Positions 542 to 17,700 are shown, numbered from the stretch's first letter. The stretch is DNA of 64,000 bases from Vicinamibacterales bacterium (GCA_035263125.1 DATFRP010000197.1:17229-81228); one strand, 5' to 3'. The notes: a model not told the origin generated them from the letters alone. A program made the numbers and translations.

Positions 542-3241
542 CTACTCGCTGCGAAACGCCACGATCGGATCAACACGCATCGCGCGAATGGCGGGGGCTG
601 CGACGGCAACAGCGGCGGTCAGGGCCAACACGAGGGGCACCATCGTGAAGGTGACCGGGTCAAGGGGCGCGACCGGATAAACGATCGTCGCCAACCATCG
701 ACTGAGGCCCGCGGCGGAGGCAAGCCCGATCACGACTCCGATCCCGGTCAGACGCGCTGCATCCCCGAAAACCAAACGCAGTACGTCACGAGCACCGGCT
801 CCGATCGCGATTCGAATCCCGAATTCACGCACCCGCTGCTGCACCGAGTACGCAAGGACGCCAAATACTCCGACCATCGCGAGTCCAAGCGCGAGAGCCG
901 CGAACGTGCCGACGAGCACGGCACGGAAGCGCTGGCGCGACATCGCCTCCCACGCAACGACGTCGATCGTTCTGATGCGTCCGAGCGGGCGATCCTTGTC
1001 TACGCGAGCGACCGCGGCACGCACTGCTGATGTCAGCGCCTCCCCCGAACCGCTCGCTGGCCTGACGATGAGCGACGACAAGTACCAGGGGTTCTGCGCG
1101 CGCGGCACGTAAATCTGCGACATCGGCGTCGTCTCCGCCGGAAAGAGCTTGACCTGTCGCGCCACGCCAACGATCTCCCGCAGTACTGGTCGCGTTGATG
1201 AAAACGACATCGCATCCACAGCGATTCTCATCCCGATCGGATCGCGGTCTCCGAGATAGCGCTGCACGAATGCCTCATTGACGATGCACACCTGCAGGCC
1301 GTCGCGACCATCGGCGCCAGTGAAGCCGCGACCTCGCACGATTGGAATATCCAACGTGCGGAAGTACGTCGGGCTCACCATGTGATAGGCGGCGAGGTCG
1401 CGTGTCGCTGCAGGCTTTGGAGGATCTCCGTCGACTGCGAATGGCATGTAGTTCCATGCGCCATCGAGCGGCACGGCACCACCCCAGGCGACACTCGCGA
1501 CGCCGGGCAATTGACCGACCTCACGCTCGACCGCGTTATAGAACTGATCGACGAGATCGGGCGTCCCATAGCGGCTCGGCGCGTTTGGATTCGGCATCGG
1601 CAGATTGATCGTCGTCGTCAGCACGTTCCTCGCGTGGTACCCGGGATCCATGGACTGCAGCGCGACCCACGTGCGCAGCAGGAGCCCGGCGCCTGCCAGC
1701 ACGATCACGGCGGCGGCCACCTCCGCGACGACGAGGACGCCTCGGAACCGTCCGCCGCGTGTCGTTGTTCGGTGGTCGATCGCGATCGCGTGTGCGACCG
1801 TCGCTCCCGTCGGCTGCCATGCCGGAGCAAGCCCGAACAGAACCCCGATGACGAGCGACGTGATCGCGCAGAAACCGATCACACGACCATCGAACGTGAG
1901 CATGACCGCACTCGGCAACAAGCCCGGCGGAACGACGGACGGTGCGGCGCGCAGAATCGCATAGCCGACGCCAACGCCGAAGAGGCCGCCCATTGCCGCG
2001 AGCACGAGGCTCTCGGTGAGCAGTTGCCGCGCCACACGACGACGCGTCGCCCCGAGGGCCGAGCGCACGGCGATCTCACGAGCCCTGGCTGATGTGCGCG
2101 CGAGCAGCAGGTTCGCGACGTTGGCGCAGCACATCAACAGCACGAAGCCAACGACGCCGAGCAGCAGGATCGAGGTGAGGCGCATCTCCGATCCGACGAG
2201 CGCATCACGCAACGGCTGCAGCACTACGCCGTGTCCTTTGTTGGTCGACGGGTAGAGCTCCTCGTTCCGTGCGGCGATCGCAGCGACATCGCGCTGTGCG
2301 GTGTCCATGGAGACGGCGTCGCGGATTCGACCGACGACGAACAGGTAATGTGCGCCTCGAAGAAACGGGCCCTGCGCGCGTGTCGGGTTGAAGAGCGTCC
2401 ACACGCTCGGCGCCGAGATCGTGGAGTTCTGACTCATGCTGGCAGGGACGACCTGAAATCGACTTGGGACGATGCCGATCACGGTCTGCAACCGGCCGCC
2501 GAGTGTAATCGGGCGACCGATGAGTGTCGGGTCGGCACCAAACCGATCCCTCCAGAACGCTTCGCTGAGCACGACGACGCCCGTGCCGTCGTCCGATCGC
2601 CGGAACGTACGCCCCGCCACTGGCGTCACGCCGAGCACCTCGAAGAATCGCGCCGTCACCGATTGCGACGACACCAGCTCGGTCGTTCCATCGACGCCGG
2701 CCAGCCCCACCGGGCCGACATATGAGAAGGCTGCCATCGCGTCGAAGGTGCGATTCTGCTCGGCCCAATCCTTGAAATCGAGCGGCGTTGTCTGAATGAG
2801 AAGGCCGTTATTGGGCTCCCACAACATCACCAGTCGGCTGGCCGGTGACGTAAACGGCAGCGGACGCAGGAACGTCGCGTCGGCGAGCGCGAAGATGGCG
2901 CTGTTGCCGCCGATGCCGAGCGTGAGCGTCAACACCGCCACCCCGGTGAATGCCGGTGACACGCGCATCTGGCGGAACGCACCGGTCACATCGTCGCGAA
3001 CCTCTTCGAGCCATCGAGTGATACGCATCTCACGTTCTCGCTTTCTGCCAAGGTCGATGCACGTGCGTTTGAGGCGAGTGACATCGCCGACCCGCGCGAG
3101 GACGATCTCGCGAGCCGTTTGTGGATCGACGCCGCGCTCGATCAGTTCGCGTGTCCGCATCTCGATGTGGAAGCCGATCTCCTCGTCCACCTCTTGATCG
3201 AGCGGCACACTCCAGAGCCACGAACGCAAGGACCGTTTCAT
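542..3241 (-). CDS. ADOP-family duplicated MacB/FtsX-like permease, array copy 1
   Basis: ORF 542..3268. I place the start at ATG 3241 (MKRSLRSWLW), where all paralogues begin; the track start is a TTG inside the upstream hairpin. Architecture: about 77-aa conserved prefix (EVDEEIGFHIEMRTRELIERGVDP), TM helix, large extracytoplasmic domain, three TM helices (LLMCCANVANLLLARTSARAREIAVRSALGA), then the same module again. It ends VDPIVAFRSE. Confidence 0.9.
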   Translation of the reverse strand: MKRSLRSWLWSVPLDQEVDEEIGFHIEMRTRELIERGVDPQTAREIVLARVGDVTRLKRTCIDLGRKREREMRITRWLEEVRDDVTGAFRQMRVSPAFTGVAVLTLTLGIGGNSAIFALADATFLRPLPFTSPASRLVMLWEPNNGLLIQTTPLDFKDWAEQNRTFDAMAAFSYVGPVGLAGVDGTTELVSSQSVTARFFEVLGVTPVAGRTFRRSDDGTGVVVLSEAFWRDRFGADPTLIGRPITLGGRLQTVIGIVPSRFQVVPASMSQNSTISAPSVWTLFNPTRAQGPFLRGAHYLFVVGRIRDAVSMDTAQRDVAAIAARNEELYPSTNKGHGVVLQPLRDALVGSEMRLTSILLLGVVGFVLLMCCANVANLLLARTSARAREIAVRSALGATRRRVARQLLTESLVLAAMGGLFGVGVGYAILRAAPSVVPPGLLPSAVMLTFDGRVIGFCAITSLVIGVLFGLAPAWQPTGATVAHAIAIDHRTTTRGGRFRGVLVVAEVAAAVIVLAGAGLLLRTWVALQSMDPGYHARNVLTTTINLPMPNPNAPSRYGTPDLVDQFYNAVEREVGQLPGVASVAWGGAVPLDGAWNYMPFAVDGDPPKPAATRDLAAYHMVSPTYFRTLDIPIVRGRGFTGADGRDGLQVCIVNEAFVQRYLGDRDPIGMRIAVDAMSFSSTRPVLREIVGVARQVKLFPAETTPMSQIYVPRAQNPWYLSSLIVRPASGSGEALTSAVRAAVARVDKDRPLGRIRTIDVVAWEAMSRQRFRAVLVGTFAALALGLAMVGVFGVLAYSVQQRVREFGIRIAIGAGARDVLRLVFGDAARLTGIGVVIGLASAAGLSRWLATIVYPVAPLDPVTFTMVPLVLALTAAVAVAAPAIRAMRVDPIVAFRSE

Positions 3242-3257
3242 ATCGACCCACCACGAC

Positions 3258-3327
3258 GCCGGATCCAAGAGCAGGACCCGGCCTACACTGTCGCCCGTCG
3301 CAGGGCCGGCTGAAGCCGGCCCCTACG
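3258..3327. repeat. two REP-like hairpins in the copy1/copy2 spacer
   Basis: First: GCCGGATCC-aagagca-GGACCCGGC followed by CTACAC (3258..3290, one mismatch). Second: GGGCCGGC-tgaa-GCCGGCCC followed by CTACG (3303..3327, perfect 8-bp stem). Confidence 0.6.
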
Positions 3328-3332
3328 AGCGT

Positions 3333-6002
3333 CTATTCGCTCCGAAACGCCTCGACCGGATCGACGCGTGCGGCGCGTATTGCGGGCGCCGCCATCGCGA
3401 CGATCGCTGTCACGATCAGAACGAGGGTCACGGCTCCGAAGGTCACTGGATCGACCGGGCGGACGCCGAACAGAAACGCGCTGACGGTCTGACCAAGTGC
3501 GGCTGCGGACACGAGACCGATGAAGACGCCGGCGGCGATCACACGTGTGGCGCCGTTCAAGACCAGACTCAACACGTCGACTGGACGAGCACCCAGCGCG
3601 ATACGCACCCCAAACTCGCGGCTCCGCTGTTCGACCGTGTACGCCAGCACGCCAAACACCCCTACCATCGCCAACACCAGTGCGAGTACGGCAAACGTCA
3701 CCACCATCACGGCGCGGAATCGGGGGCGCGTCGTCGCCTCTCGGGCAACGTCATCGAGAGTCCTGACGAGCGTCGTGGGGACGCCTCGATTCACACGTGC
3801 CACTGCCGCCCTGATCGCCGGCACGAGCGCGTCGCCGCGTCCACCGGCCGGCCGCACTGCCAGTGCGGCGAAGCTCCACGGGTTCTGCGCCATCGGGACA
3901 TACACCTGCGGTGTCTCGACGACCTCGGTGGGCGTACCCTTCACCTGACGCACGACGCCGACGATCTCCCGCACGATCGGCGCCGCCGGCCCGAGTTGCA
4001 TCGGCTTGATCGCGATCCGTGTGCCGACGGGATTTCTCCCTTGCAGGTAGCGGTGGAGCAGGCCCTCACTGACCAGACACACTGGAACGCTCGCGGCGCT
4101 GTCCTGCGTCGTGAATCCGCGTCCTGCGATGACAGGCACGTCGATCGTCTGCAGATAGGTGGGCGTCACGAGCTGGTAGTCGGCGATCGGACGATCCGTC
4201 GGGTTTGCGTTCCCCTCTCCGACGATGTCGAAGCCGAATCCGCCGAGCGCGGGTCCCTCGAGCGGCAGCCCGCTCGACCAGCCGACACTTCTCACGCCCG
4301 GCACCGCGGCCACCTCCCGCTCGACGGCATCGAAGAATCGCCGCAGCGCGTCGGCGTCGGGAAACTGCGACGTCGGCAGTCCGTATCCCAGGTTGACGCG
4401 TATCGTGACCACGCTCTCGGCCCGGTATCCGGCATCGACGTTGTCGAGCGTGATGAGCGTACGAAGGAGCAGGCCTGCGCCGCACAACAGCAGTACGGCG
4501 GCCGCGATCTCGCCGATCACCAGAAGGCTGCGAAGTCGTCCTGCACCTCTGGTCGTCGTACGACTCTCGGCCGACGTCGCCTGAATGAGCGAGATCCCGC
4601 TCGCCTGCCACGCCGGAGCCAGACCGAAGAGAAGGCCGACGACGCCCGCGGTCACACCGCAGAACAGCGCGACGCGCGCATCGAACGCGAGGGTCACCGC
4701 CAACGGAAGCACGCCGGCGGGAATCACGCTGGGCGCGGTCTTCAGGATCGCCGCGCCGACCGCCAACCCGAGCACGCCTCCGATGGCAGCGAGAACGAGG
4801 CTCTCCGTGAGAATCTGCGCGACGATGCGGCGACGCCCGGCGCCGAGTGCGGCACGCACGGCGATCTCGCGTGCACGGCCGCTCGCACGAGCGAGCAGCA
4901 GATTGGCGACGTTCGCGCAGCACATCAGCAGTACGAATCCGACCACGGCGAGGAACAGCAACGAGGTGAGGCGCATCTCCCGTCCGATCACACTGCTCCG
5001 CATCGGCTCCACAGTGACGCCGCGGTCCTTGTTGGTCGCCGGGAACTCGCGCGCGAGCGACTCGGCGATCGTCGTCATGTCGTTCTGCGCCGCGTCGAGC
5101 GTGACGCCGGGTTTGAGTCGTCCGATGCCGCGAAAGAAGTGGAGACCTCTCGTGTCCATGCCTGGCAGATCCGCAAACAGCGTCCAGAGACGGGCGGCGC
5201 CGCCGGCACTCTGCGCCTCCGCGGGAACGATGCCGAGGATGGTGAACGGAAATTCGTCGAGTTGAACCGTTCGCCCGACCACGCCTGGATCGGCGCCGAA
5301 CCGCGTCCGCCAGAGTCCCTCGCTCATCACCGCCGCGTTCGGCGGCATCGCGACATCGCTCGGCCGAAACGTCCGCCCGAGGATCGGCTTGACGCCCAGC
5401 ACGTCGAAGTACTGAGTAGTGACCTGCATCGCAGGAATCATTTCGACAGTGCCGTCGCCGGCAGCCATTCGCCGTGGGAAGCCAAGACCTCCCGCGATCG
5501 ATTGGAACGTGCGATTGCGTTCGATCCAATCACGAAGATTCGCCGATGAGACGGCCACGTGCGGGAATGCCTTGAATCGCTCCCATACGACCGTCAGTCG
5601 ATCCTGATCGGGAAAGGGCAGCGGCCGCAGCAGCGCGGCGTCGACGAGCGCGAACATCGCGCTGTTGGCGCCGATACCGAGCGCCAGCGTGATCACTGCG
5701 ACCAGAGTGAAGCCCGGCGAGGCTTTCAACTGCCTGACCGCAAACTTCACGTCGTCTCTGAGCTCACTGAGCCACTGTGTGATGCGCATCTCACGATCCC
5801 GCTTTCTGCCAAGGTCGACGCACGTGCGTTTGAGGCGCGTGACGTCGCCGAGTCGCGCCAGCACGATGTCGCGCGCCGTTTTTGGATCGACGCCGTGCTC
5901 GATCAACTCGCGCGTCCGCATCTCGATGTGGAAGGTGATCTCTTCGTCCACCTCCTGGCGAATCGGCACGCGCCAGAGCCACGAACGGAGTGAGCGCTTC
6001 AT
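3333..6002 (-). CDS. ADOP-family duplicated MacB/FtsX-like permease, array copy 2
   Basis: 889-aa ORF starting MKRSLRSWLWRVPIRQEVDEEITFHIEMRTRELIEHGVDP. It has the same two-module FtsX architecture (LLMCCANVANLLLARASGRAREIAVRAALGA) and ends VDPVEAFRSE. It is closest by eye to copy 6. Confidence 0.92.
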   Translation of the reverse strand: MKRSLRSWLWRVPIRQEVDEEITFHIEMRTRELIEHGVDPKTARDIVLARLGDVTRLKRTCVDLGRKRDREMRITQWLSELRDDVKFAVRQLKASPGFTLVAVITLALGIGANSAMFALVDAALLRPLPFPDQDRLTVVWERFKAFPHVAVSSANLRDWIERNRTFQSIAGGLGFPRRMAAGDGTVEMIPAMQVTTQYFDVLGVKPILGRTFRPSDVAMPPNAAVMSEGLWRTRFGADPGVVGRTVQLDEFPFTILGIVPAEAQSAGGAARLWTLFADLPGMDTRGLHFFRGIGRLKPGVTLDAAQNDMTTIAESLAREFPATNKDRGVTVEPMRSSVIGREMRLTSLLFLAVVGFVLLMCCANVANLLLARASGRAREIAVRAALGAGRRRIVAQILTESLVLAAIGGVLGLAVGAAILKTAPSVIPAGVLPLAVTLAFDARVALFCGVTAGVVGLLFGLAPAWQASGISLIQATSAESRTTTRGAGRLRSLLVIGEIAAAVLLLCGAGLLLRTLITLDNVDAGYRAESVVTIRVNLGYGLPTSQFPDADALRRFFDAVEREVAAVPGVRSVGWSSGLPLEGPALGGFGFDIVGEGNANPTDRPIADYQLVTPTYLQTIDVPVIAGRGFTTQDSAASVPVCLVSEGLLHRYLQGRNPVGTRIAIKPMQLGPAAPIVREIVGVVRQVKGTPTEVVETPQVYVPMAQNPWSFAALAVRPAGGRGDALVPAIRAAVARVNRGVPTTLVRTLDDVAREATTRPRFRAVMVVTFAVLALVLAMVGVFGVLAYTVEQRSREFGVRIALGARPVDVLSLVLNGATRVIAAGVFIGLVSAAALGQTVSAFLFGVRPVDPVTFGAVTLVLIVTAIVAMAAPAIRAARVDPVEAFRSE

Positions 6003-6032
6003 TCGATTGCTCGCCTGCAGGAAACCGAGAGT

Positions 6033-6128
6033 ACGGAGGAAACCGATAAACAGGAGAAACGAAACGGAGCTCTTTTGAACAAAATGTTCTCCGCTGCTCC
6101 GTTTCTCCTGTTAATCCGTTTTCTCCGT
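6033..6128. repeat. long imperfect inverted repeat, AT-richer than its context, in the copy2/copy3 spacer
   Basis: The left arm is 6033..6070 (acggaggaaaccgataaacaggagaaacgaaacggagc). The right arm is 6096..6128; its reverse complement is acggagaaaacggattaacaggagaaacggagc. 30 of 33 positions match, with a 5-nt bulge. The loop contains the palindrome GAACAaaaTGTTC. ACGGAG/CTCCGT units are iterated. Confidence 0.6.
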
Positions 6129-6149
6129 CATCTCCGTTACCTGCTCAAC

Positions 6150-8915: not shown

Positions 8916-11597
8916 TCACTCACTCCGGAACGCTTCGATAGGATCGACGCGCGAAGCACGCAGCGCGGGGACCACCGCGGCGATGGCGGCCGTCACGCCC
9001 AGCACGAGGATGACGGTGCCGAACGTCAGCGGATCGATTGAGGGGACGCCAACGAGAAACGTCGCAATCGATTGACCGAGCACCGCAGCCAGCCCGAGAC
9101 CGATCAGCGCGCCGGTCCCGATCACGCGAGCGGCACTGGTCAAGACCATCTTCAACACGGTCGCGGCGGTGGCGCCGAGTGCGATGCGAACGCCGAACTC
9201 ACGCGTCCGCTGCTCGACGGCATACGCGAGCACACCGAAGACGCCGACCATCGCGAGCACAAGAGCGAGCCCGCCGAACACGACGACGAGCACCGCGCGG
9301 AAACGTTGCGGGGACGAGGACTGCCATGCGATGTCCTGCATCGTGCGGACGCGTGTCACCGGGACCGTCTTGTCCACGCGGGCGACCGCAGCGCGCACGA
9401 TCGGCGCGAGCGCGTCGGCATTCCCACGTGCCGGTCGAACGACGAGCGACGCACTGACGCTGACGTCCTGTCCAAGCGGCACGTAAATGTGTACGGGCTC
9501 TTCCAGTTCGACCGGTTGTCCCTTGACCTGCCGCACGACGCCGACGATTTCACGCACGATCGGCTCGCGTGATTCCAGTGCGCCTACCCTCCTGAGCGCG
9601 ACTCGCTTGCCCAAGGGGTCGCGTCCGTTCAGGACGGTCCGCACGAACGCCTCGTTCACCAGGCACACCGGCTGACTCTCCGGTGTGTCGCGATCGGTGA
9701 GCGCGCGTCCACGCACCATCGGAATCTCCAGTGTCGTGAAAAACGTCGGGCTGACGATCTGGATATCAGCGGTGGGCCGGCTATTGAGATCGCGCGGCGG
9801 GTCACCAACCACTTCGAACGTCATCTCGTGAATGAACTGGTGGTCGAGCGGAAGCGCCCGTCCCCAGCCGATGCCGCTGACCGCGGGCGACATCGCGAGC
9901 TGCTGTTCGACTGCGGTGTAGAACCGCTGCATCGACTCGCGCGTGGGATATCCCGAGCCGGGGACACCACCAGGCAGATTGAGCTGGACCGTCAGGACAT
10001 TCTCAGCGCCGTGCCCCGCATCGAGCCGCTCGACGGCCATCAACGTTCGCAGTAACAAGCCGGCACCACACAGGAGCAGCACCGCGGTCGCCACCTCCGC
10101 GGCGACGAGCAGGCTCCGGAATTTTCCGTCGCGGCCCGTCGCGCTGCGGCTTTCCGAGCCGATCACCTGCACGAGCGAACGGCCGGTCGCCTGGAATGCC
10201 GGGGCCAGCCCGAAGAGCACGCCGACGGCGAATGCGCTCACGGCACAGAACGCGATTACGCGTCCATCGAATGTGAACGCGATCGCCGGTGGCAGCAGTC
10301 CCTCGGGGATCACAGCCGGAGCCACCTCGAGGATCGCGGCGCCGACTGCCAGTCCGATCACGCCGCCAATGGCGGCGAGCACGATGCTCTCGGTCAGGAT
10401 CTGCGTCACGATTCGCACCCGTCCCGCACCCAGTGCCGATCGCACCGCGAGCTCGCGCGCGCGAACGGTCGTCCGCGCGAGCAGCAGATTCGCGATGTTG
10501 GCGCAGCACATCAGCAGCACCACGCCGACAACGCCGAGCAACAGCACGGAAGTTAGACGCACGTCCGAGCGGATCACCCACTCGCGTAGCGGATCGACCC
10601 TGACGCCGCGACCCTTGTTGGTGGCGGGATACTCTCGCGCGAGCGCGTCACCGATCGCCGTCATGTCGTCTCGCGCCGCCTGTTCGCTGACGCCAGGCTT
10701 CAGCCGACCGAACACGCGCATGAAGTGGAGCGCCCGTTCGTCGAGCCCCGGCACCGGCACATAGGGCGTCCAGAATCTGCTCGGCGCCAGTACCTGCGCG
10801 GCTTCTGGAACAACACCGATGACGGTGAACGGTCGCCCATCGATCTGGAAGGTGCGTCCAACGATTCCACGGTCCGCGCCGAATCGCGCGCGCCAGAACG
10901 TTTCGTTGAGCACCACCACGTCGAGATTCGATGCGACGTCATTCGGTACGAACACACGGCCCACGATCGGTGTCACCCCGAGGACCTGGAAGAATGGCGC
11001 CGTCACGCGCCAGCCGATCACCTGCTCGACCGTACCGTCGGCGCCGACAATCGTGCGAGTACCGCCCCCGTACGCCATGCCGGCCATGCCCTCGAACGTC
11101 CGGTTCCGCTCGTTCCAGTCGCGAAGGTTCAGGGGCGCGACGGCCGCGCAGCACCCCCGCAGCGCGGCGAACTGTTCGGACACCAGGAACACCCGATCGG
11201 GATCCCGAAGCGGCAGCGGACGAATCAGAATGCCATCGGCCAGCGCGAAGATCGCGCCGTTGGCGCCGATGCCGAGCGCGAGGGTGAGCGTGGCGATCAG
11301 CGTGAACGCCGGCGCCCGCCGCAACTGCCGCAGCGCGAATCGCACGTCGTCTCTCACCTCACCGAGCCATTGCGTCAGTCGCATCTCACGATCCCGCCTT
11401 CTGCCAAGGTCCACGCACGTGCGTTTCAGGCGAGTGACGTCGCCCACCCGCGCGAGGACGATCTCGCGCGCTGCCCTCGGGTCGACTCCACGCTCGACCA
11501 GTTCGCGCATCCGCATCTCGACGTGGAACGCGATTTCTTCGTCGACTTCACGATCGACGGGAACCCGCCAGAGCCACGATCGAAGTGAGCGCCTCAT
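8916..11597 (-). CDS. ADOP-family duplicated MacB/FtsX-like permease, array copy 4
   Basis: ORF 8916..11606. The track start is a GTG; I prefer ATG 11597 (MRRSLRSWLWRVPVDREVDEEIAFHVEMRMRELVERGVDP), which aligns with the other copies. It ends VDPIEAFRSE. Confidence 0.9.
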   Translation of the reverse strand: MRRSLRSWLWRVPVDREVDEEIAFHVEMRMRELVERGVDPRAAREIVLARVGDVTRLKRTCVDLGRRRDREMRLTQWLGEVRDDVRFALRQLRRAPAFTLIATLTLALGIGANGAIFALADGILIRPLPLRDPDRVFLVSEQFAALRGCCAAVAPLNLRDWNERNRTFEGMAGMAYGGGTRTIVGADGTVEQVIGWRVTAPFFQVLGVTPIVGRVFVPNDVASNLDVVVLNETFWRARFGADRGIVGRTFQIDGRPFTVIGVVPEAAQVLAPSRFWTPYVPVPGLDERALHFMRVFGRLKPGVSEQAARDDMTAIGDALAREYPATNKGRGVRVDPLREWVIRSDVRLTSVLLLGVVGVVLLMCCANIANLLLARTTVRARELAVRSALGAGRVRIVTQILTESIVLAAIGGVIGLAVGAAILEVAPAVIPEGLLPPAIAFTFDGRVIAFCAVSAFAVGVLFGLAPAFQATGRSLVQVIGSESRSATGRDGKFRSLLVAAEVATAVLLLCGAGLLLRTLMAVERLDAGHGAENVLTVQLNLPGGVPGSGYPTRESMQRFYTAVEQQLAMSPAVSGIGWGRALPLDHQFIHEMTFEVVGDPPRDLNSRPTADIQIVSPTFFTTLEIPMVRGRALTDRDTPESQPVCLVNEAFVRTVLNGRDPLGKRVALRRVGALESREPIVREIVGVVRQVKGQPVELEEPVHIYVPLGQDVSVSASLVVRPARGNADALAPIVRAAVARVDKTVPVTRVRTMQDIAWQSSSPQRFRAVLVVVFGGLALVLAMVGVFGVLAYAVEQRTREFGVRIALGATAATVLKMVLTSAARVIGTGALIGLGLAAVLGQSIATFLVGVPSIDPLTFGTVILVLGVTAAIAAVVPALRASRVDPIEAFRSE

Positions 11598-11695: not shown

Positions 11696-14398
11696 TCACT
11701 CACTTCGGAAGGTTTCGACGGGATCCACTCGTGTCGCACGCCACGCCGGCGCCGCGGCCGCAACTGTCGCCGTCAGCACGAGCACGGCTGCCACCGTCGC
11801 GAACGTCGTGGGATCCAACGGCCGCACACCGAACAGGAAACTTGAAATCGTCTGCGCCAACGCCGCCGCGGCCCCGAGTCCGATCGCCCCGCCCACACCG
11901 ACCATGCGTGCGGCGCCACCGACGATCAATCGCAGGACGTCGGCGGTTCTCGCGCCCAGCGCGATTCGAACGCCGAGCTCACGCGTGCGCTGCTCTACCG
12001 AATACGCGAGCACGCCGAAAATCCCAACCATCGCCAGTGCAAGAGCGAGCGCGGCAAACGTGCCGACCATGACCGCACGGAAACGGTGCGGCGCAGTCGT
12101 CAGGTTGGCGAGATCGGTCAGCGTTCGTTCCCTGCGCACCGGCACGTCCCTGTCGATCCGCGCGATCGCATCGCGAATCGGGGTGATCAACGACTGCACC
12201 GGCCCCGACGTCGCTTGAACGACCAGGTAGGTGTCTGACAACGGAAGCTGCGTCAGAGGCACGTACACCACCAACGGCGAATAGGGCTCGTCCATCCGAT
12301 CTTTCAGCTGACGGACGACGCCGACGATTGCTCTCGGCATTGGCGCCATGACGCCTGGAATGTCGATGCCGATCACCACGCGAGCCCCGATCGGATCTCT
12401 GCCTGCCAGGTGCTGCCGGACGAACGCTTCGTTGACGATGCAGACGAGCGGGCTGTCACCAGCATCACGTTCGTCGAAAGGGCGGCCCGCGACGATCGGA
12501 AGGTCGAGCGTGGTGAAGTAGCCTGGGCTCGCCGCCTGCAAATCCGCCGAGGGCTGATTCGCTGCGGGCACCGGCGGATCACCGGCGATCTCGAATCGCA
12601 GGCGCCCTATCTCCGTCGTTCCCCACGGGAGGCCCGTCGACCATCCGAACCGGCGCACGCCCGGGATCGCGCTCACGTCGCGCGTCGCCGCATCGTAGAA
12701 CTGCGTGTACGACTGCATGGTCGGATAGCGCGTGCCCGCCCGCGGAGGAGGCAGGCTGAAGTCGAGCGTCAGCACGATGTCACCGTCGGCGCGATACCCG
12801 GGATCGAAGCCGCTGAACACCAGCATGGTGCGCAGCAATAGTCCAGCACCGCAGAGGAGCAGCACCGCTGCAGCCACTTCGCCGGCGACGACGATGCGGC
12901 GAAACCGTCCATCGCGGCCGGTGGTCGATCGGCTCTCGGATGTGATCGCCTGCAGGAGTGAAGGTCTCGTGGCCTGCCACGCCGGCATGAGGCCGAACAA
13001 CACGCCGACCGACATCGCTGCCAGCGCGCAGAAGATCACCACGCGTCCGTCGAATGCGACCGACAGTGCTGCCGGTAGCAGCCCCGGCGGTATCAAGAGG
13101 GGCGCACCTTTGAGAATCGCAGCGCCGACAGCGGCACCGAGGATGCCGCCGAGCGTCGCAAGCACGAGGCTCTCGGTCAGCAGCTGCACGACGATGCGCG
13201 ATCGGCCTGCGCCAAGCGCCGCACGGACGGCGAGTTCTCGCGAACGGGCGCTCCCGCGCGCGAGCAGCAAGTTGGCGATGTTCGCGCAGCACAAGAGCAG
13301 CACGAAGCCGACGACGCCGAGGAGGAGCAGCGACGTCATCCGCAGATCGCGACCCATGACCCCATTCCGCAGCGGCTCGACGAATACGCCCCAATCCACG
13401 TTCGTTTCCGGATACGCCCCTGCAAGTCGGTTGGCGACGACCGACAAATCCGCCTGCGCAGCCGCCATCGTGACGCCCGGCTTGAGACGGCCGATGACCT
13501 GCATGAACCTCGCGTTGCGAGGGATGTTCTGAGTCAGGCTGCCGGCTTCAGGCAGGTCGGGCAGGAGCGACCAGATGCTCGCGGGGCGCTGGAGTTGAAC
13601 ATCGTCGCGCACGATCCCGATCACTGCGAACGGCTGGCCGTTCAAACGGATCGTGCGTCCAATCAATGCGGGGTCGGCACCAAACCGTCTTCGCCACAAG
13701 CCCTCGCTCATCACGACCACCGGCGCGGCCCCTCGCTCCGCATCGGCCGGGCGGAATGTTCGACCTGCCACGGGCGTGATGCCCAGGACGTCGAAGAAGC
13801 GCGCGGTCACCGTTTGCCGATCCGCGCTCTGCAACGATCCGTCGGGGGCTTCGACCAGCGGCCCGCCGCCGGCGCCGAACATGATCGCCGCGAACGCTTC
13901 GAACGTCTGAGTCTGTTTCTCGAGATCGCCAAGATCGCTCGGCGAGACACCCGTCCGGGGAATCTTTGGTGTACGCCCCCAGACCATGGCCAAGCGATCG
14001 GCGTTGGCGTACGGCAGCGCTCGCAGCAGCGTCGCGTCAGCGAGCGCGAACATCGCGCTGTTCGCCCCGATGCCGAGCGCCAGCGTGATCGCCGCGACCG
14101 CGGTGAAAGCGGGCGCCGCTCTCAATTGCCTGATCGCAAACTTCACATCGTCCTTGAACTCACCGAGCCATTGTGTGAGACGCATCTCTCGATCTCTCCG
14201 TCGACCTAGATCCACACACGTCCGTTTGAGCCGCCTTACATCACCGAGCCGCGCGAGCACGACCTGGCGCGCGGCCTTCTGATCCATGCCGCGCTCGACG
14301 AGCTCGCGTGTGCGCATCTCGATATGGAAGGCGATTTCTTCGTCGACCTCCTGATCGATCGGCACGCGCCACAGCCACGATCGAAGAGAACGTTTCAT
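11696..14398 (-). CDS. ADOP-family duplicated MacB/FtsX-like permease, array copy 5
   Basis: 900-aa ORF starting MKRSLRSWLWRVPIDQEVDEEIAFHIEMRTRELVERGMDQ, with the same architecture. It ends VDPVETFRSE. Confidence 0.92.
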   Translation of the reverse strand: MKRSLRSWLWRVPIDQEVDEEIAFHIEMRTRELVERGMDQKAARQVVLARLGDVRRLKRTCVDLGRRRDREMRLTQWLGEFKDDVKFAIRQLRAAPAFTAVAAITLALGIGANSAMFALADATLLRALPYANADRLAMVWGRTPKIPRTGVSPSDLGDLEKQTQTFEAFAAIMFGAGGGPLVEAPDGSLQSADRQTVTARFFDVLGITPVAGRTFRPADAERGAAPVVVMSEGLWRRRFGADPALIGRTIRLNGQPFAVIGIVRDDVQLQRPASIWSLLPDLPEAGSLTQNIPRNARFMQVIGRLKPGVTMAAAQADLSVVANRLAGAYPETNVDWGVFVEPLRNGVMGRDLRMTSLLLLGVVGFVLLLCCANIANLLLARGSARSRELAVRAALGAGRSRIVVQLLTESLVLATLGGILGAAVGAAILKGAPLLIPPGLLPAALSVAFDGRVVIFCALAAMSVGVLFGLMPAWQATRPSLLQAITSESRSTTGRDGRFRRIVVAGEVAAAVLLLCGAGLLLRTMLVFSGFDPGYRADGDIVLTLDFSLPPPRAGTRYPTMQSYTQFYDAATRDVSAIPGVRRFGWSTGLPWGTTEIGRLRFEIAGDPPVPAANQPSADLQAASPGYFTTLDLPIVAGRPFDERDAGDSPLVCIVNEAFVRQHLAGRDPIGARVVIGIDIPGVMAPMPRAIVGVVRQLKDRMDEPYSPLVVYVPLTQLPLSDTYLVVQATSGPVQSLITPIRDAIARIDRDVPVRRERTLTDLANLTTAPHRFRAVMVGTFAALALALAMVGIFGVLAYSVEQRTRELGVRIALGARTADVLRLIVGGAARMVGVGGAIGLGAAAALAQTISSFLFGVRPLDPTTFATVAAVLVLTATVAAAAPAWRATRVDPVETFRSE

Positions 14399-14505: not shown

Positions 14506-17169
14506 TCACTCGCTGCGGAACGCCACGACGGGATCGACGCGTACGGCACGCAGCGCGGGCACCGCTGTCGCGACCAGGGCAGTGATGATCGAGACGAGGG
14601 TCGCAGCACCAAACGTCAACGGATCAACCGGCGTGACGCCGAACAGGAACGAACCAATCGCCTGACCGAGTGCCGCCGCCACCACCAACCCGACAGCGAC
14701 TCCAACCGCGATGACACGCCCTGCTCCGTTCAAGACGAGACCGAGGACAGTCCATGGCGTCGCCCCAAGCGCGATGCGAACCCCGAACTCGCGGCTGCGC
14801 TGTTCGACGGTGTACGCCAGGACGCCGAAGACTCCCACCATGGCGAGCAGCAGCGCCAGCGCCGCGAACGTCACCACCATCACGGCGCGGAACCGCGGCC
14901 GCGCCGTCGCGTCTCTCGCCACCTCGTCGAGCGTTCTGATGCGCGTCAGCGGTACTCCACTATCCACGCGCGCGACTGCGACCCTCACCGCCGTGACGAG
15001 CGCATCGGCGCGGCCGCTGCGTGGCCGCACAGCGAGCGCGACAAAGCTCCACGCGTTCTGTGCGAACGGCACGTATACCTGCGCCGGGTCATCGACTTCT
15101 GTTGGTTGATTCTTCACCTGCCGCACGACACCGACGATCTCGCGCACGATCGGCTGCGAGGACCCGAGCTGGATTCGTCCGATCGCGATCCGCATCCCGA
15201 TCGGATTCGTGGTGTGCAGATACCGCCGCACGAGCCCTTCACTGACCAGACACACAGGCACGCTCATGGCCGAGTCCTGGTCAGAGAAACCACGGCCAGC
15301 GACCACCGGAATATCGAGTGTCTGCAAGTACGTTGGAGTGACGAGCTGGTAGTCGGCCAGCGGACGATCCGTCGATGCGGCCGCTTCGTTGCCGACGATG
15401 TCGAACGGCATCCTGGAGAAATTACCGTCGAGTGGCAGACCGGTCGTCCACCCGACGCTGCGCACACCGGGCACGCGTTGCACCTCGCGCTCGACGGCAT
15501 CGACGAAGCGACGCAGCGCGTCCTCATTGGGAAAACGCGACGTGGAGGCGCCGTACTCGAGATTGACGCGGAACGTGATCACGTTGTTCTCGCGGTAACC
15601 AGCGTCGACGTTGTCGAGCGACATCAAGGTGCGCAACAGCAGGCCCGCGCCGCACAGCAACAAGACCGCAGCGGCGACTTCGGCGATGACGAGGACGCTC
15701 CGAAGTCGTGCTCCTCCCTTCGTGCTGCCGCGGCTTTCAGAAGAGGTCGCCTGAACGAGCGACGTGCCGCTCGCCTGCCACGCCGGCGCGAGACCAAAAA
15801 TCAATCCGATCGCAAACGTCGTCGCCGCGCAAAACACGATGACCCGCGCATCGAAAGACAGCGTGACTGCAGGCGGCAACACACCCTGAGGAATCAGGCT
15901 GGGCGCGATCCTCAGGATGAGCGCGCCGACCCCGAGCCCAAGCGAGCCACCGATCAGCGCGAGCACCAGGCTCTCGGTGAGGATCTGGGTGACGATGCGC
16001 CTCCGCCCCGCACCGAGCGCCGCGCGGACAGCGATCTCACGGGTGCGCCCGCTCGCGCGCGCGAGCAGCAGATTCGCGACGTTCGCGCAGCACATCATCA
16101 ACACGAACCCGACGACGCCGACGAAGAGCAACGACGTCAGGCGCATTTCGGACGGAATCAATCCAGTGCGCAGCGGCTCGACGGTGATCCCGCGCCCCTT
16201 GTTCGTCCCCGGAAGCTCGCGCGCGAGCGTGTCGGCGAGCGTCGTCATCTCGCTTTGCGCCGCCTCGACGGTGATACCACGCTTCAGCCGTCCAATGACC
16301 GACATGAAACGCAGGCCTCGGGCGTCCATGCCCGGCAGCTCGGCCCACAGCGTCCATAGGCCAGCGCGCTGCACGACTTGCGCTTCGGCGGAGACGACCC
16401 CGAGAATCGCGACCGGACCGCCATCGACTTGAATCGTGCGGCCGACCACCGAAGGGTCCGCGCCGAACCGCGTGCGCCACAACCCTTCACTGATCACCAT
16501 CGTGTTCGGCGGAAACGCAACGTCGCTCGGCACGAACGTACGGCCAAGGATCGGTGTAATCCCAAGCACGTCGAAGTAGCGCGTCGTCACCTGCATCGCG
16601 GGGATCTCCTCGACCGTGCCATCAGGTGCCGCTATTCGACGCGGATAACCGAAAAACCCCGCCATTGACTCGAAGGTCTGGGACCGTTCGCTCCAATCGC
16701 GGAAATTCAGCCACGACGCGGTGATTCGAGGAAACGATTCGAATCGCTCCCAGACCCTGGTGAGTCGATCGGCGGCGGGAAATGGGAAAGGCCGCAGCAG
16801 CGTCGCGTCCGCAAGCGCAAACATCGCGCTGTTCGCACCGATGCCGAGCGCCAACGTGATCGCCGCGACCAGCGTGAACCCTGGCGCCCCTCGCAGTTGC
16901 CGCAGCGCAAACGTCACATCGTCTTTGAGCTCACCGAGCCATTGTGTGAGGCGCATCTCTCGATCTCTTCGCTGTCCAAGATCCACGCACGTGCGTTTGA
17001 GCCGGCTGACATCGCCCAGTCGTGCGAGCACCACTTCACGTGCGGCGTGCGGGTCCATGCCACGCTCGACCAACTCGCGCGCGCGCATCTCGATATGGAA
17101 GCCGATTTCTTCGTCGACCTCCTGATCGATCGGCACCCGCCACAGCCACGAGCGCAACGAACGCTTCAT
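14506..17169 (-). CDS. ADOP-family duplicated MacB/FtsX-like permease, array copy 6
   Basis: ORF 14506..17208. I prefer ATG 17169 (MKRSLRSWLWRVPIDQEVDEEIGFHIEMRARELVERGMDP), which aligns with the other copies. It ends VDPVVAFRSE. Confidence 0.9.
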   Translation of the reverse strand: MKRSLRSWLWRVPIDQEVDEEIGFHIEMRARELVERGMDPHAAREVVLARLGDVSRLKRTCVDLGQRRDREMRLTQWLGELKDDVTFALRQLRGAPGFTLVAAITLALGIGANSAMFALADATLLRPFPFPAADRLTRVWERFESFPRITASWLNFRDWSERSQTFESMAGFFGYPRRIAAPDGTVEEIPAMQVTTRYFDVLGITPILGRTFVPSDVAFPPNTMVISEGLWRTRFGADPSVVGRTIQVDGGPVAILGVVSAEAQVVQRAGLWTLWAELPGMDARGLRFMSVIGRLKRGITVEAAQSEMTTLADTLARELPGTNKGRGITVEPLRTGLIPSEMRLTSLLFVGVVGFVLMMCCANVANLLLARASGRTREIAVRAALGAGRRRIVTQILTESLVLALIGGSLGLGVGALILRIAPSLIPQGVLPPAVTLSFDARVIVFCAATTFAIGLIFGLAPAWQASGTSLVQATSSESRGSTKGGARLRSVLVIAEVAAAVLLLCGAGLLLRTLMSLDNVDAGYRENNVITFRVNLEYGASTSRFPNEDALRRFVDAVEREVQRVPGVRSVGWTTGLPLDGNFSRMPFDIVGNEAAASTDRPLADYQLVTPTYLQTLDIPVVAGRGFSDQDSAMSVPVCLVSEGLVRRYLHTTNPIGMRIAIGRIQLGSSQPIVREIVGVVRQVKNQPTEVDDPAQVYVPFAQNAWSFVALAVRPRSGRADALVTAVRVAVARVDSGVPLTRIRTLDEVARDATARPRFRAVMVVTFAALALLLAMVGVFGVLAYTVEQRSREFGVRIALGATPWTVLGLVLNGAGRVIAVGVAVGLVVAAALGQAIGSFLFGVTPVDPLTFGAATLVSIITALVATAVPALRAVRVDPVVAFRSE

Positions 17170-17179
17170 AGCGCCTCGT

Positions 17180-17250
17180 CGTAGGCCGGGTCCTGTTCTG
17201 TGGACCACCCGGCTCCCACGGCCGGTCTATACAGCAAGACCCGCCCTACG
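17180..17250. repeat. inverted pair of REP-like hairpins in the copy6/stub spacer
   Basis: The organisation matches 14418..14487. First: CGTAG + GCCGGGTCC-tgttctgt-GGACC(ac)CCGGC. Second: GGCCGGTCT-atacagca-AGACCCGCC + CTACG. Confidence 0.6.
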
Positions 17251-17271
17251 AATGTTCGTGATACGCGACCT

Positions 17272-17364
17272 TCACTCACTCCGAAACGCTTCGACCGGAT
17301 CGACCCGCGTCGCCCGCAGCGCCGGAGCTGCGATTGCCGCTGCCGCGGTGATTACCAACACCAA
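17272..17364 (-). pseudogene. 3'-terminal stub (30 codons plus stop) of a seventh ADOP permease
   Basis: The minus-strand translation is LVLVITAAAAIAAPALRATRVDPVEAFRSE*. It matches the conserved C-termini of the six full copies (for example VTLVLIVTAIVAMAAPAIRAARVDPVEAFRSE). The upstream roughly 870 codons are missing. The stub starts directly after the PadR stop codon. Confidence 0.85.
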
Positions 17365-17700
17365 TCATTGGGCGAGCAGAATCTTTGAAACCGCCGCGAC
17401 GAACTGAAGCCACGTCGCCGTCTCGGCGTTGAGTTGTGCTCGCCCCTGTCGCGTGAGGCGATAGAGTTTGGCGCGGCGGCCGAGCTCCGACTCTCCCCAC
17501 TCGGCTTCGAGCCAACCTCGTCGCTCCATCCGGTACAACGCGGGATAGAGCGACCCTTCTTCGACCACGACCGTTTCGCCGGAGGCATCCTCGATGAACT
17601 TCGCGATTGCGTATCCGTGGCGCGGACCTGAGGCGAGCGTCTTGAGAATCAGCGCGTCGAGCGTGCCGTGCAGCAGGGCGTTGGGCGTCTTCGAGGCCAT
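17365..17700 (-). CDS. PadR-family transcriptional regulator
   Basis: 111 aa with a winged-helix PadR pattern: LDALILKTLASGPRHGYAIAKFIEDASGETVVVEEGSLYPALYRMERRGWLEAEW...KLYRLTRQG. It sits at the 5' end of the permease array. Confidence 0.9.
   Translation of the reverse strand: MASKTPNALLHGTLDALILKTLASGPRHGYAIAKFIEDASGETVVVEEGSLYPALYRMERRGWLEAEWGESELGRRAKLYRLTRQGRAQLNAETATWLQFVAAVSKILLAQ

What the first reader, a model, noticed from the sequence alone, without database searches (positions are those of the whole stretch)
542..17700. PadR-headed tandem array of six ATPase-less duplicated MacB/FtsX-type permeases: possibly a sensor bank rather than a transporter
Six co-oriented 888-900 aa paralogues follow one PadR gene, with spacers of only 57-147 nt. 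Each copy has two FtsX-type modules with large extracytoplasmic domains. I recognised no ABC ATPase-like protein (NBD-type Walker A/signature pattern) among the ORFs of the 64-kb window by eye, which fits the ADOP definition of 'orphan' permeases.

The best-conserved segment between copies is not a transmembrane or extracytoplasmic region. It is the cytoplasmic N-terminal prefix of about 77 aa (MKRSLRSWLWRVPIDQEVDEEIAFHIEMRTRELVERGVDP..AREIVLARLGDV.RLKRTCVDLGR.RDREMR.TQW). I count 12 differences in 77 residues between copies 2 and 5. The extracytoplasmic domains are far more diverged.

The helical pattern of this prefix (acidic stretch, H, R.EL...G.....A....LGD) resembles the DUF1700/HAAS-type N-terminal domains that comparative-genomic work has linked to PadR regulators as membrane sensor partners.

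Inference: the prefix may bind or sequester PadR. If so, a bank of six receptors with diversified outer domains would converge on one repressor, or would be autoregulated by it.
Basis: partly seen in the sequence, partly recalled or inferred. Interest (0 to 1): 0.75.

Follow-up and report, generated by a model that had tools for sequence, protein, structure and literature searches.

The report
PadR-controlled bank of MacB-type permease paralogues
One small repressor gene heads six diverged copies of a double MacB/FtsX-type membrane permease that share a nearly identical cytoplasmic "handle"; this is a known but untested regulator-plus-permease pairing, and the copies look like pump subunits that borrow their ATPase motor from elsewhere, not motor-less sensors.

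Summary
A PadR gene (17365-17700, minus strand) heads six co-oriented ADOP-family duplicated permeases (542-17169). Spacers are 57-147 nt. No ABC ATPase lies in the 64-kb window or in the 4.4 kb beyond its left edge.

The ~77-aa N-terminal prefix is the best-conserved segment: 83% identity against 47% in the outer domains. Synonymous sites are saturated, so this is purifying selection and not gene conversion.

The prefix is NCBIfam perm_prefix_1. It is a weak but unique match to Pfam HAAS. In 128 related loci it occurs almost only in PadR-headed gene chains (112 of 114 genes, against 10 of 136 prefix-less ADOPs). Its sequence tracks the PadR sequence and not the permease body (partial r 0.82-0.89). 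A conserved 10-N3-10 palindrome sits 15 nt upstream of PadR.

The prefix-PadR idea is therefore supported, but it is already published as the "HAAS-PadR dyad", including FtsX/MacB fusions (mSystems 2024).

The "sensor, not transporter" reading is not supported:
- ADOPs with the same prefix sit in complete PadR-ADOP-MacA-like adaptor-MacB-type ATPase operons, for example in Terriglobus roseus.
- Vicinamibacterales genomes carry permease-less PadR-adaptor-ATPase operons.
- The ATPase-docking motifs are as conserved here as in ATPase-linked relatives.

Verdict: a new member of a known kind, of moderate interest.

The parts
17743..17772 (-). Promoter-like conserved block AACCTA-N16-CGTCTAAG just upstream of the operator
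   Evidence: The block AAC(C/T)T-N16-CGTC(A/T)AAG keeps a fixed distance from the palindrome in about 20 Vicinamibacterales loci (sequences). Its likeness to ECF-sigma promoters is from memory and was not tested.
17715..17737 (.). Candidate PadR operator: perfect palindrome ATTACCAAGA-N3-TCTTGGTAAT, 15 nt upstream of the PadR ATG
   Evidence: Unique in the window at up to 3 mismatches, with 0 expected. The outer half-sites are exact in 9 loci. The consensus rTTACCmAGA-N3-TCTkGGTAAy lies upstream of PadR in about 25 loci.
17365..17700 (-). PadR-family repressor, 111 aa, short single-domain type
   Evidence: Pfam PadR 80.2 bits. NCBIfam TIGR03433 padR_acidobact 134.7 bits, cut-off 101.8.
17272..17364 (-). 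Relic of an ADOP 3' end (LVLVITAAAAIAAPALRATRVDPVEAFRSE*), in frame directly after the PadR stop codon
   Evidence: Read from the sequence. It aligns with the 3' ends of A1-A6.
17170..17271 (-). Spacer with a nested GC-rich hairpin, homologous to the A1-A2 and A2-A3 spacers
   Evidence: Alignment. RNA fold of 17170-17274: -52 kcal/mol, z -4.5.
14506..17169 (-). ADOP copy A1 (887 aa); HAAS-type prefix is codons 1-77 (16939-17169)
   Evidence: TIGR03434 809 bits, perm_prefix_1 46 bits. Two MacB_PCD and two FtsX modules.
11696..14398 (-). ADOP copy A2 (900 aa); prefix 14168-14398
   Evidence: TIGR03434 825 bits. AlphaFold2 model pLDDT 82.5, helices 14-35, 40-51 and 54-94 leading into TM1. Best structural match is E. 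coli YbbP, E 2.6e-20.
8916..11597 (-). ADOP copy A3 (893 aa); prefix 11367-11597
   Evidence: TIGR03434 814 bits. Has a 92% identical orthologue in locus L003.
6150..8858 (-). ADOP copy A4 (902 aa); prefix 8628-8858
   Evidence: TIGR03434 813 bits. Has an 86% identical orthologue in L003.
3333..6002 (-). ADOP copy A5 (889 aa); prefix 5772-6002
   Evidence: TIGR03434 815 bits. Has a 96% identical orthologue in L003.
542..3241 (-). ADOP copy A6 (899 aa); prefix 3011-3241
   Evidence: TIGR03434 796 bits.
6003..6149 (-). A4-A5 spacer holding a long inverted repeat (45-nt arms, 6017-6061 and 6100-6144)
   Evidence: Inverted repeat. RNA fold -71.5 kcal/mol, z -8.6.
41123..41467 (-). Second PadR (114 aa), heading the solitary pair
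   Evidence: phmmer E 7e-32 to PadR1; 53% identical to it. It has its own imperfect palindrome CCCTTAGA-TCG-TCTAGGG at 41474-41491.
38470..41121 (-). Solitary ADOP (883 aa) with a diverged prefix; its start lies 1 nt after the PadR2 stop
   Evidence: TIGR03434 854 bits, perm_prefix_1 47 bits. Prefix 30% and body 34% identical to the array copies.

Best explanation
The locus is one operon, probably autoregulated by PadR, in a Vicinamibacterales (Acidobacteriota) genome. PadR most likely binds the palindrome that overlaps the promoter.

The six genes encode old, diverged paralogues of the ADOP family. Each is a single polypeptide with two MacB/FtsX-type modules, most like E. coli YbbP. Each carries a cytoplasmic three-helix HAAS-type prefix in front of TM1.

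Proposed mechanism. The prefix is the docking site that links the state of the permease to the PadR dimer. When a permease engages its substrate in the envelope, the prefix captures or reconfigures PadR and the operon is derepressed. All six prefixes must fit the same PadR, so they stay nearly identical while the outer domains diversify. The array would then act as an OR gate of six specificities on one switch.

The permeases are most likely still working subunits of type VII ABC machines. The MacB-type ATPase, and probably a MacA-like adaptor, would be supplied in trans from another operon.

Shown here: gene content, family membership, selection on the prefix, prefix-PadR co-occurrence and co-variation, the conserved palindrome, and the existence of complete and of complementary operons in relatives.

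Inferred: physical prefix-PadR binding, the direction of regulation, use of an ATPase in trans, co-transcription of the six genes, and the substrates.
For: Family membership: TIGR03434, TIGR03433 and perm_prefix_1 all score above their cut-offs.

Fold: the model's best match is YbbP of YbbAP (E 2.6e-20), then MacB, LolCDE and BceAB-S.

Selection on the prefix: dN/dS is 0.08 at dS 1.24, against dN/dS 0.18-0.44 elsewhere in the protein.

Co-occurrence: 112 of 114 prefix-ADOP genes lie in PadR chains, against 10 of 136 prefix-less ones (Fisher 3e-56).

Co-variation:
- Prefix identity tracks PadR identity (r 0.93; partial r given body 0.82). Prefix against body given PadR is only 0.15.
- Copies not adjacent to PadR give partial r 0.89, reached by 0 of 500 permutations.
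- In 15 of 15 multi-copy chains, from several lineages, prefix identity exceeds body identity.

Gene junctions: the PadR stop and ADOP start overlap by 4 nt in 27 of 64 pairs.

Operator: the palindrome is unique in the window and conserved in relatives.

ATPase partners in relatives:
- Complete PadR-hA-MFP-ABC operons in L152, L166, L181, L187 (Terriglobus roseus DSM 18391) and L191; L176 shows hA-MFP-ABC with its upstream end cut off, so no PadR is seen there.
- Permease-less PadR-MFP-ABC operons in L142, L153 and L173, and PadR-ABC in L186, all Vicinamibacterales.
- Prefix-less ADOP arrays headed by a single MacB/LolD/YbbA-class ATPase.
- Coupling-helix motifs equally conserved in all classes.

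Precedent: the Listeria PadR-type repressor LftR needs LftS, a DUF1048 protein of the HAAS superfamily, for derepression. Its operator also has an N3 spacer.
Against: - No prefix-PadR contact was predicted or measured; the tools could not fold a complex.
- The HAAS assignment is below Pfam's threshold, and fold and PDB searches with the prefix alone found nothing.
- Co-variation can partly reflect shared descent of a PadR-plus-prefix module, and the loci form only a few clades.
- No ATPase or adaptor lies within the window or the 4.4 kb beyond it (64 kb plus 4.4 kb in all; 46 kb upstream of PadR).
- 41 of 43 PadR-hA operons sampled without regard to ATPases also lack one nearby.
- The rest of the source genome could not be searched, so the in-trans partner is unproven.
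- Six prefixes per PadR gives a stoichiometry whose regulatory effect is unclear.
Confidence: 0.6

Rival explanations
1. One reading: the six proteins are ATPase-independent receptors. Their outer domains bind ligands, the signal passes through the prefix to PadR, and nothing is transported.
For: No ATPase lies in the window or the 4.4 kb beyond it (64 kb plus 4.4 kb in all). 41 of 43 PadR-hA operons lack a nearby ATPase or adaptor. The prefix-PadR coupling is strong.
Against: ADOPs of the same family and with the same prefix occur in tight operons with a MacA-like adaptor and a MacB-type ATPase. Permease-less adaptor-ATPase operons exist in the same order. The coupling-helix motifs R..R.rE.AvR.ALGA and QRT.E.GvR.ALGA are as conserved as in ATPase-linked relatives. 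Known sensing relatives such as BceAB still hydrolyse ATP (established knowledge).
Confidence: 0.15
2. PadR senses a small ligand directly, as classical PadR or LmrR-type repressors do. The prefix has another role, such as assembly, adaptor or ATPase docking, or membrane insertion. It tracks PadR only because the two are inherited together as one cassette.
For: Direct ligand binding is the textbook PadR mechanism (established knowledge). PadR and the first prefix lie within 400 bp, so linkage alone gives some correlation. The loci form a limited number of clades.
Against: Prefix-less ADOPs assemble with ATPases without the prefix, so it is not needed for docking. Prefixes of copies 2-6, up to 14 kb from PadR, are still held at about 80% identity with saturated synonymous sites. 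The prefix is absent wherever PadR is absent. In Listeria, LftS is genetically required for derepression.
Confidence: 0.2
3. The prefix is conserved because of recent duplication or gene conversion at the 5' ends, not because of function.
For: Conserved gene ends and repeated spacers could promote recombination. The relic after PadR and the shuffled copy order in relatives show that rearrangements do occur.
Against: Synonymous divergence in the prefix (pS 0.57, dS 1.24) matches the rest of the gene, while dN is 3-5 times lower than in every other block except the TM1 block (about 1.5 times). Each paralogue has closer orthologues in other genomes (86-96%) than paralogues in its own array (53-74%).
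Confidence: 0.03

Closest known systems
ADOP family (NCBIfam/TIGRFAMs TIGR03434, 'Acidobacterial duplicated orphan permease') with its companion PadR family TIGR03433
   Same: All seven permeases and both PadRs in the window score well above the curated cut-offs. They share the duplicated MacB_PCD plus FtsX architecture, the acidobacterial host and the lack of an adjacent ATPase.
   Different: Nothing differs structurally. My survey shows that 'orphan' is not a family property: members occur with a dedicated adaptor and ATPase, or in arrays headed by one ATPase.
HAAS-PadR-like wHTH dyad (Ravi et al., mSystems 2024, PMC11237479), proposed as an alternative to two-component systems; the authors list HAAS fused to FtsX-like TM plus MacB/PCD domains
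   Same: An N-terminal helical prefix on a multi-TM protein, always next to a standalone PadR. The same mechanism, a conformational change passed to PadR, is proposed.
   Different: Here six HAAS-bearing proteins share one PadR. The third-helix motif is G-D/x-V rather than GxP. The Pfam HAAS match is below threshold.
E. coli YbbAP-TesA (PDB 9ge6; PMC12646458) and MacAB-TolC, both type VII ABC machines
   Same: The best structural match is YbbP, also one polypeptide with two FtsX/PCD halves. Relatives have MacA-like adaptor, MacB-type ATPase and, in L194, a TolC-like gene.
   Different: There is no ATPase, adaptor or hydrolase partner in this operon. The extra HAAS prefix and the PadR control are not features of YbbAP or MacAB.
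BceAB-BceRS flux-sensing modules of Firmicutes
   Same: An FtsX-type permease with a large outer domain doubles as the sensor that switches on its own expression. BceAB-S structures are among the fold matches.
   Different: BceB signals to a histidine kinase and has its ATPase BceA in the same operon. Here a PadR repressor and a HAAS prefix take the place of the kinase and regulator. This is a likeness in how it works, not membership.
Listeria LftR-LftS (PadR-type repressor plus DUF1048 co-regulator)
   Same: PadR plus a HAAS-superfamily partner in one operon. The partner is required for derepression by an antimicrobial. The operator has an N3 spacer.
   Different: No transmembrane or permease domain is reported for LftS in the papers read (it is annotated only as a DUF1048 protein), and the regulated transporter LieAB is encoded elsewhere.

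Membership tests
ADOP (TIGR03434) | Full-length match above the curated cut-off (622.3 bits) | tested here: met
   796-825 bits for A1-A6 and 854 bits for the solitary copy.
ADOP (TIGR03434) | Duplicated architecture: two MacB_PCD and two FtsX modules in one polypeptide | tested here: met
   Pfam finds two stretches of each domain in all seven proteins. The AlphaFold2 model shows two halves.
ADOP (TIGR03434) | 'Orphan': no ABC ATPase gene adjacent | tested here: met
   None in the window or the 4.4 kb beyond it. This is not a family-wide rule.
padR_acidobact (TIGR03433) | Match above the curated cut-off (101.8 bits) | tested here: met
   134.7 bits for PadR at 17365-17700.
HAAS-PadR dyad | HAAS domain recognised by sequence | tested here: inconclusive
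   NCBIfam perm_prefix_1 is above its cut-off. Pfam HAAS PF22564 is the only recurrent hit (8 of 38 diverse prefixes, best E 6.8e-5), but every hit is below the 27-bit cut-off.
HAAS-PadR dyad | Three consecutive helices, the third starting at a conserved G(xP) kink | tested here: inconclusive
   Predicted helices 14-35, 40-51 and 54-94, with a nearly invariant G at 52. The P is mostly absent. Foldseek with the prefix alone found nothing, best E 5.6.
HAAS-PadR dyad | Always encoded next to a standalone PadR-like wHTH | tested here: met
   112 of 114 prefix-bearing ADOP genes lie in PadR-containing chains.
HAAS-PadR dyad | Physical or functional coupling of HAAS to PadR | not testable with these tools
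   Only indirect support: co-variation with partial r 0.82-0.89 and start/stop overlap. Complex prediction was not possible.
Type VII ABC transporter (MacB/YbbP/LolCE class) | FtsX four-helix TM fold with a periplasmic core domain between TM1 and TM2 | tested here: met
   Foldseek matches YbbP at 2.6e-20 and MacB at 5e-15. Pfam domains agree.
Type VII ABC transporter (MacB/YbbP/LolCE class) | Cytoplasmic coupling-helix motif for ATPase docking is retained | tested here: met
   R..R.rE.AvR.ALGA and QRT.E.GvR.ALGA are invariant in the seven window copies. They are as conserved as in ATPase-linked ADOPs.
Type VII ABC transporter (MacB/YbbP/LolCE class) | A cognate MacB/LolD/FtsE-class ATPase | tested here: not met
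   Absent from the window and its 4.4-kb extension. Present next to same-family ADOPs in other genomes, and as permease-less operons in Vicinamibacterales. The source genome as a whole could not be searched.
BceAB-BceRS type sensing transporter | Histidine kinase and response regulator partner | tested here: not met
   The main ORFs of the window scanned against Pfam gave no kinase or response-regulator match; several smaller ORFs were not scanned. The comparison concerns only how it may work.

The most novel reading that the evidence does not exclude
The six permeases have lost transport. They would form a true receptor bank: six diversified outer domains, no ATP hydrolysis, all converging through near-identical HAAS prefixes on one PadR dimer. 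That would be a many-to-one, kinase-free signalling array built from a transporter scaffold.
Probability: 0.12. Interest if true: 0.7.

Novelty: new member of a known kind. Interest (0 to 1): 0.4.

Why it matters
ADOP permeases are among the largest paralogous families in soil Acidobacteriota: at least 7,987 homologues of one copy, and 13,426 50%-identity clusters carry the prefix. None has a known function.

This analysis turns two loose database notes into a testable model. The notes are 'orphan permease' and 'HAAS-PadR dyad'. In the model, one PadR switch reads out several permeases through a shared prefix. The permeases are interchangeable specificity subunits of MacAB-like machines whose ATPase and adaptor are encoded separately.

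If that is right, it would explain how these bacteria expand envelope defence or extraction capacity by duplicating only the substrate-facing part. It would also give the HAAS-PadR idea a tractable system: Terriglobus roseus DSM 18391 has a complete PadR-ADOP-adaptor-ATPase operon.

Tried and rejected
- Gene conversion as the cause of prefix conservation: rejected, because synonymous sites are saturated.
- Sequence search of PDB with the prefix alone and with a 38-sequence profile: only chance-level hits.
- Foldseek with a prefix-only model: nothing, best E 5.6. The published link to DUF1048 (PDB 2O3L) could not be reproduced.
- Rfam scan of the whole window for the structured spacers: no family.
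- The ABC ATPase next to a PadR-ADOP pair in L023/L049: it belongs to a different transporter, with a 585-aa multi-TM partner and a YSKGMRQR signature, so it is not an ADOP partner.
- My first chain statistic (ATPase in 1 of 68 prefix chains) understated the link, because a 1.3-kb adaptor gene separates ADOP from ATPase. It was corrected with an adaptor HMM.
- Exact-sequence look-up of copy A5: not on record. A4 worked and gave the 4.4-kb extension.
- The prefix homologue search returned only short fragments, so it said little about architecture.

Full report
**1. The observation**

The minus strand of 542-17700 carries a 111-aa PadR gene (17365-17700) followed by six large co-oriented ORFs. 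All six align from a shared MKRSLRSW start. With that start the coordinates are:
- A1 14506-17169
- A2 11696-14398
- A3 8916-11597
- A4 6150-8858
- A5 3333-6002
- A6 542-3241

Lengths are 887-902 aa and the spacers are 107, 98, 57, 147 and 91 nt. Each protein has two MacB_PCD and two FtsX Pfam domains.

A second pair lies at 38470-41467: PadR2 followed by one ADOP, with the ADOP start 1 nt after the PadR2 stop.

No ABC ATPase is encoded anywhere in the window:
- No reading frame combines Walker A with an ABC signature.
- An HMM built from 31 ABC ATPases found in related loci gives nothing better than E = 0.23.
- The other main genes scanned against Pfam are unrelated: dienelactone hydrolase, cytochromes c, ankyrin, PSD/DUF1552, pirin, sortase, VWA, a metallo-beta-lactamase, a PQQ dehydrogenase, a CarboxypepD_reg-domain protein of 1017 aa, a phosphate-binding-type protein and an RND pump; four further genes had no Pfam match.

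The array sits at the window's left edge, so I fetched the same metagenome contig. It runs 4.4 kb further and encodes a RodZ_C protein, an unknown protein and an SLT/TPR protein, with no ATPase or adaptor.

**2. Conservation of the prefix**

Mean pairwise identity among the six copies, by region:
- first 77 residues: 0.83
- main transmembrane blocks (TM1, TM2-4, TM6-8): 0.66-0.77; the TM5 block: 0.48
- the two outer domains: 0.47-0.48

This is not gene conversion. Synonymous divergence in the prefix (pS 0.57, dS 1.24) equals that of the rest of the gene. dN/dS is 0.08 in the prefix and 0.18-0.44 elsewhere.

The paralogues are old. A2 has homologues at 76-81% identity in other samples, while its array-mates are 53-57% identical to it. 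A3, A5 and A4 have orthologues of 92, 96 and 86% in another Vicinamibacterales genome, where they stand in a different order.

**3. What the parts are**

All seven permeases pass NCBIfam TIGR03434 (ADOP) at 796-854 bits, against a cut-off of 622. Both... the array PadR passes TIGR03433 (padR_acidobact). All seven prefixes pass NF038403 (perm_prefix_1).

Against Pfam, the prefix hits only HAAS (PF22564), at E 0.03-0.06. Among 38 diverse prefixes taken from related loci, HAAS is the only family hit more than twice: 8 members, best E 6.8e-5, all below the gathering score.

An AlphaFold2 model of A2 (75-sequence alignment, pLDDT 82.5, pTM 0.70) shows three helices at 14-35, 40-51 and 54-94. The third runs into TM1 at 96-125. 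The best PDB match of the whole model is YbbP of E. coli YbbAP (E 2.6e-20), followed by MacB, LolCDE and BceAB-S.

The prefix alone finds nothing in PDB, by sequence or by fold.

The nearest loci place the organism in Vicinamibacterales, Acidobacteriota.

**4. Link between prefix and PadR**

I collected 127 public loci, sampled either by prefix similarity or by ADOP-body similarity. With HMMs built here I mapped PadR, prefix, ADOP body and ABC ATPase on them.

- Co-occurrence. Prefix-bearing ADOP genes lie in PadR-containing same-strand chains in 112 of 114 cases. Prefix-less ADOPs do so in 10 of 136 (Fisher 3e-56). Five of those ten carry a different long N-terminal extension.
- Arrays. Arrays of two to at least five prefix-ADOPs behind one PadR are common in Vicinamibacterales.
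- Gene junctions. The PadR stop and ADOP start overlap by 4 nt in 27 of 64 pairs and lie within 10 nt in 43.
- Co-variation. Across 86 PadR/ADOP pairs, prefix identity follows PadR identity (r 0.93; partial r given body identity 0.82). Prefix against body given PadR is 0.15.
- Co-variation away from PadR. Restricting to copies not adjacent to PadR gives partial r 0.89, reached by 0 of 500 label permutations.
- Within chains. In all 15 multi-copy chains, from several lineages, within-chain prefix identity (0.61-0.96) exceeds body identity (0.35-0.62).
- Within this window. The two PadRs are 53% identical, while the two prefix types are 30% and the bodies 34% identical. This fits two insulated pairs.

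**5. Regulatory DNA**

A perfect palindrome, ATTACCAAGA-TTG-TCTTGGTAAT, lies at 17715-17737, 15 nt upstream of the PadR ATG. It is unique in the window even at three mismatches.

The consensus rTTACCmAGA-N3-TCTkGGTAAy, with a variable centre, occupies the same place in about 25 related loci. PadR2 has its own imperfect palindrome with the same N3 geometry. The Listeria PadR-type repressor LftR also uses an N3-spaced operator.

No second copy of the palindrome lies inside the array, so a single PadR-controlled promoter is the simplest reading. Co-transcription itself was not tested.

**6. The ATPase question**

Prefix-less ADOPs often form arrays headed or tailed by a single ATPase, for example 'ABC A A A A A'. 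Those ATPases belong to the DarD/MacB/LolD/FtsE/YbbA class.

I then searched public genomes with one such ATPase. This found complete, tightly packed operons of the form PadR, prefix-ADOP, HlyD/MacA-like adaptor, ATPase:
- a Verrucomicrobia MAG (L152)
- an Acidobacteria MAG (L166)
- a Terriglobales MAG (L181: 4674-5027, 5028-7682, 7687-8958, 8959-9660)
- Terriglobus roseus DSM 18391 (L187)
- a Vicinamibacterales MAG (L191)

In an Opitutia MAG (L176) the locus starts inside the prefix-ADOP gene, so only prefix-ADOP, adaptor and ATPase are seen.

The permeases in three of these operons checked against NCBIfam (L181, L187, L191) pass TIGR03434 (703-867 bits) and perm_prefix_1, and the L181 PadR passes TIGR03433.

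Four Vicinamibacterales genomes carry the complementary arrangement. L142, L153 and L173 have PadR-adaptor-ATPase and L186 has PadR-ATPase, with no ADOP-type permease detected in any of them; for L153, L173 and L186 the next gene was checked and lies on the other strand. L194 reads adaptor, ATPase, TolC-like gene, prefix-ADOP, prefix-ADOP. These adaptors have no HAAS prefix.

The cytoplasmic coupling-helix motifs are invariant in the window copies. They are as conserved in PadR-linked ADOPs (n = 85) as in ATPase-linked ones (n = 37).

Even so, in loci not chosen through the ATPase, 41 of 43 PadR-prefix-ADOP operons with at least 2.5 kb of downstream sequence lack a nearby adaptor or ATPase. 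Local 'orphanhood' is therefore the rule, but it is not a property of the protein.

**7. Interpretation**

The best-supported model is a PadR-autoregulated operon of six alternative permease subunits of type VII ABC machines. The prefix reports permease state to PadR. The ATPase, and probably an adaptor, are supplied in trans.

The shared PadR explains why six old paralogues keep one prefix while their outer domains drift.

Genetic precedent exists in Listeria. Derepression of LftR targets by aurantimycin requires LftS, a DUF1048 protein that the HAAS authors place in the same superfamily.

Physical binding, the sign of regulation, the in-trans ATPase and the substrates are all inferences.

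**8. Comparison with the literature**

The PadR-ADOP association is built into the NCBIfam/TIGRFAMs models; that these two families were defined as companions is my recollection.

The HAAS-PadR dyad is proposed in Ravi et al. 2024 (PMC11237479). [quoted passage not shown]

In the held library, the only two papers that use the term 'HAAS domain' together with PadR are comparative-genomic; neither tests the idea experimentally. 'Duplicated orphan permease' appears only in passing in two genome papers.

- quantitative co-occurrence and co-variation of prefix and PadR
- the many-prefixes-to-one-PadR rule
- the conserved operator
- evidence that prefix-ADOPs are pump subunits with separable ATPase/adaptor modules

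**9. Verdict**

The locus is a new member of a known kind. Interest is moderate (0.4).

Noticed in passing
window 17272-17364 (minus strand): Directly after the PadR stop codon, and in frame with it, lie 30 codons plus a stop that encode a typical ADOP C-terminus (LVLVITAAAAIAAPALRATRVDPVEAFRSE*). A normal inter-ADOP spacer follows. An ADOP copy between PadR and A1 seems to have been almost wholly deleted. This would explain why this PadR is 195 nt from its first ADOP, whereas 4-nt overlap is the usual arrangement.
   Followed up: partly
window 17170-17271, 14399-14505, 11598-11695, 8859-8915, 3242-3332: The spacers share GC-rich hairpins (CGGGTCY-N8-RGACCYG). There are 11 matches, all inside the array, against 0.28 expected. 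They fold far better than shuffled sequence (z -2.7 to -4.5). No Rfam family matches. They could be mRNA-stabilising or attenuating stem-loops, or recombination sites for shuffling copies.
   Followed up: partly
window 6003-6149 (arms 6017-6061 and 6100-6144): The A4-A5 spacer differs from the others. It is a relatively AT-rich inverted repeat with 45-nt arms (RNA fold -71.5 kcal/mol, z -8.6) and looks like a small inserted palindromic element.
   Followed up: no
window 17743-17772 and upstream regions of PadR in L003-L031: A conserved block AAC(C/T)T-N16-CGTC(A/T)AAG sits 5-6 nt upstream of the palindrome. From memory it resembles ECF (sigma-E type) promoters more than sigma-70 ones. In contrast, several Gemmatimonadota, Verrucomicrobia and other PadR operons (e.g. 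L040, L043, L047) show TTGACA, followed in some by a TAnnnT-like box.
   Followed up: no
L142, L153, L173, L186 (Vicinamibacterales chromosomes and contigs): These loci carry PadR-headed operons that encode a MacA-like adaptor and a MacB-type ATPase (only the ATPase in L186) but no permease. They mirror the ATPase-less ADOP arrays. Their PadRs have no HAAS partner in the operon.
   Followed up: partly
L053, L069, L110, L083, L030 (ADOPs directly after a PadR): Five PadR-adjacent ADOPs lack perm_prefix_1 but carry a different long N-terminal extension, with a motif like LL..FP...R..YG.EM..F. This may be a second prefix type paired with PadR.
   Followed up: no
window 41558-44597 and L186 9748-12342: A PQQ-dependent dehydrogenase and a cytochrome c lie just upstream of the solitary PadR-ADOP pair on the same strand. 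A PQQ dehydrogenase also neighbours the PadR-ATPase operon in L186. This may be coincidence.
   Followed up: no
window 18236-19192 (plus strand): A dienelactone-hydrolase-family gene lies upstream of the PadR array on the opposite strand (about 0.5 kb from the PadR start, with a small called ORF between). The closest solved relative, YbbAP, works with a hydrolase partner (TesA). I did not check whether this neighbourhood is conserved.
   Followed up: no
L206 7343-9943 (= window A3): The public gene call for copy A3 is 866 aa. It starts 27 codons inside the conserved prefix. Homology puts the start at the ATG at 11597.
   Followed up: yes
window 58049-64000: An unrelated HlyD-type adaptor and an AcrB-type RND pump are followed by a third co-oriented gene that runs off the window's right end. 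This is a separate efflux system.
   Followed up: no
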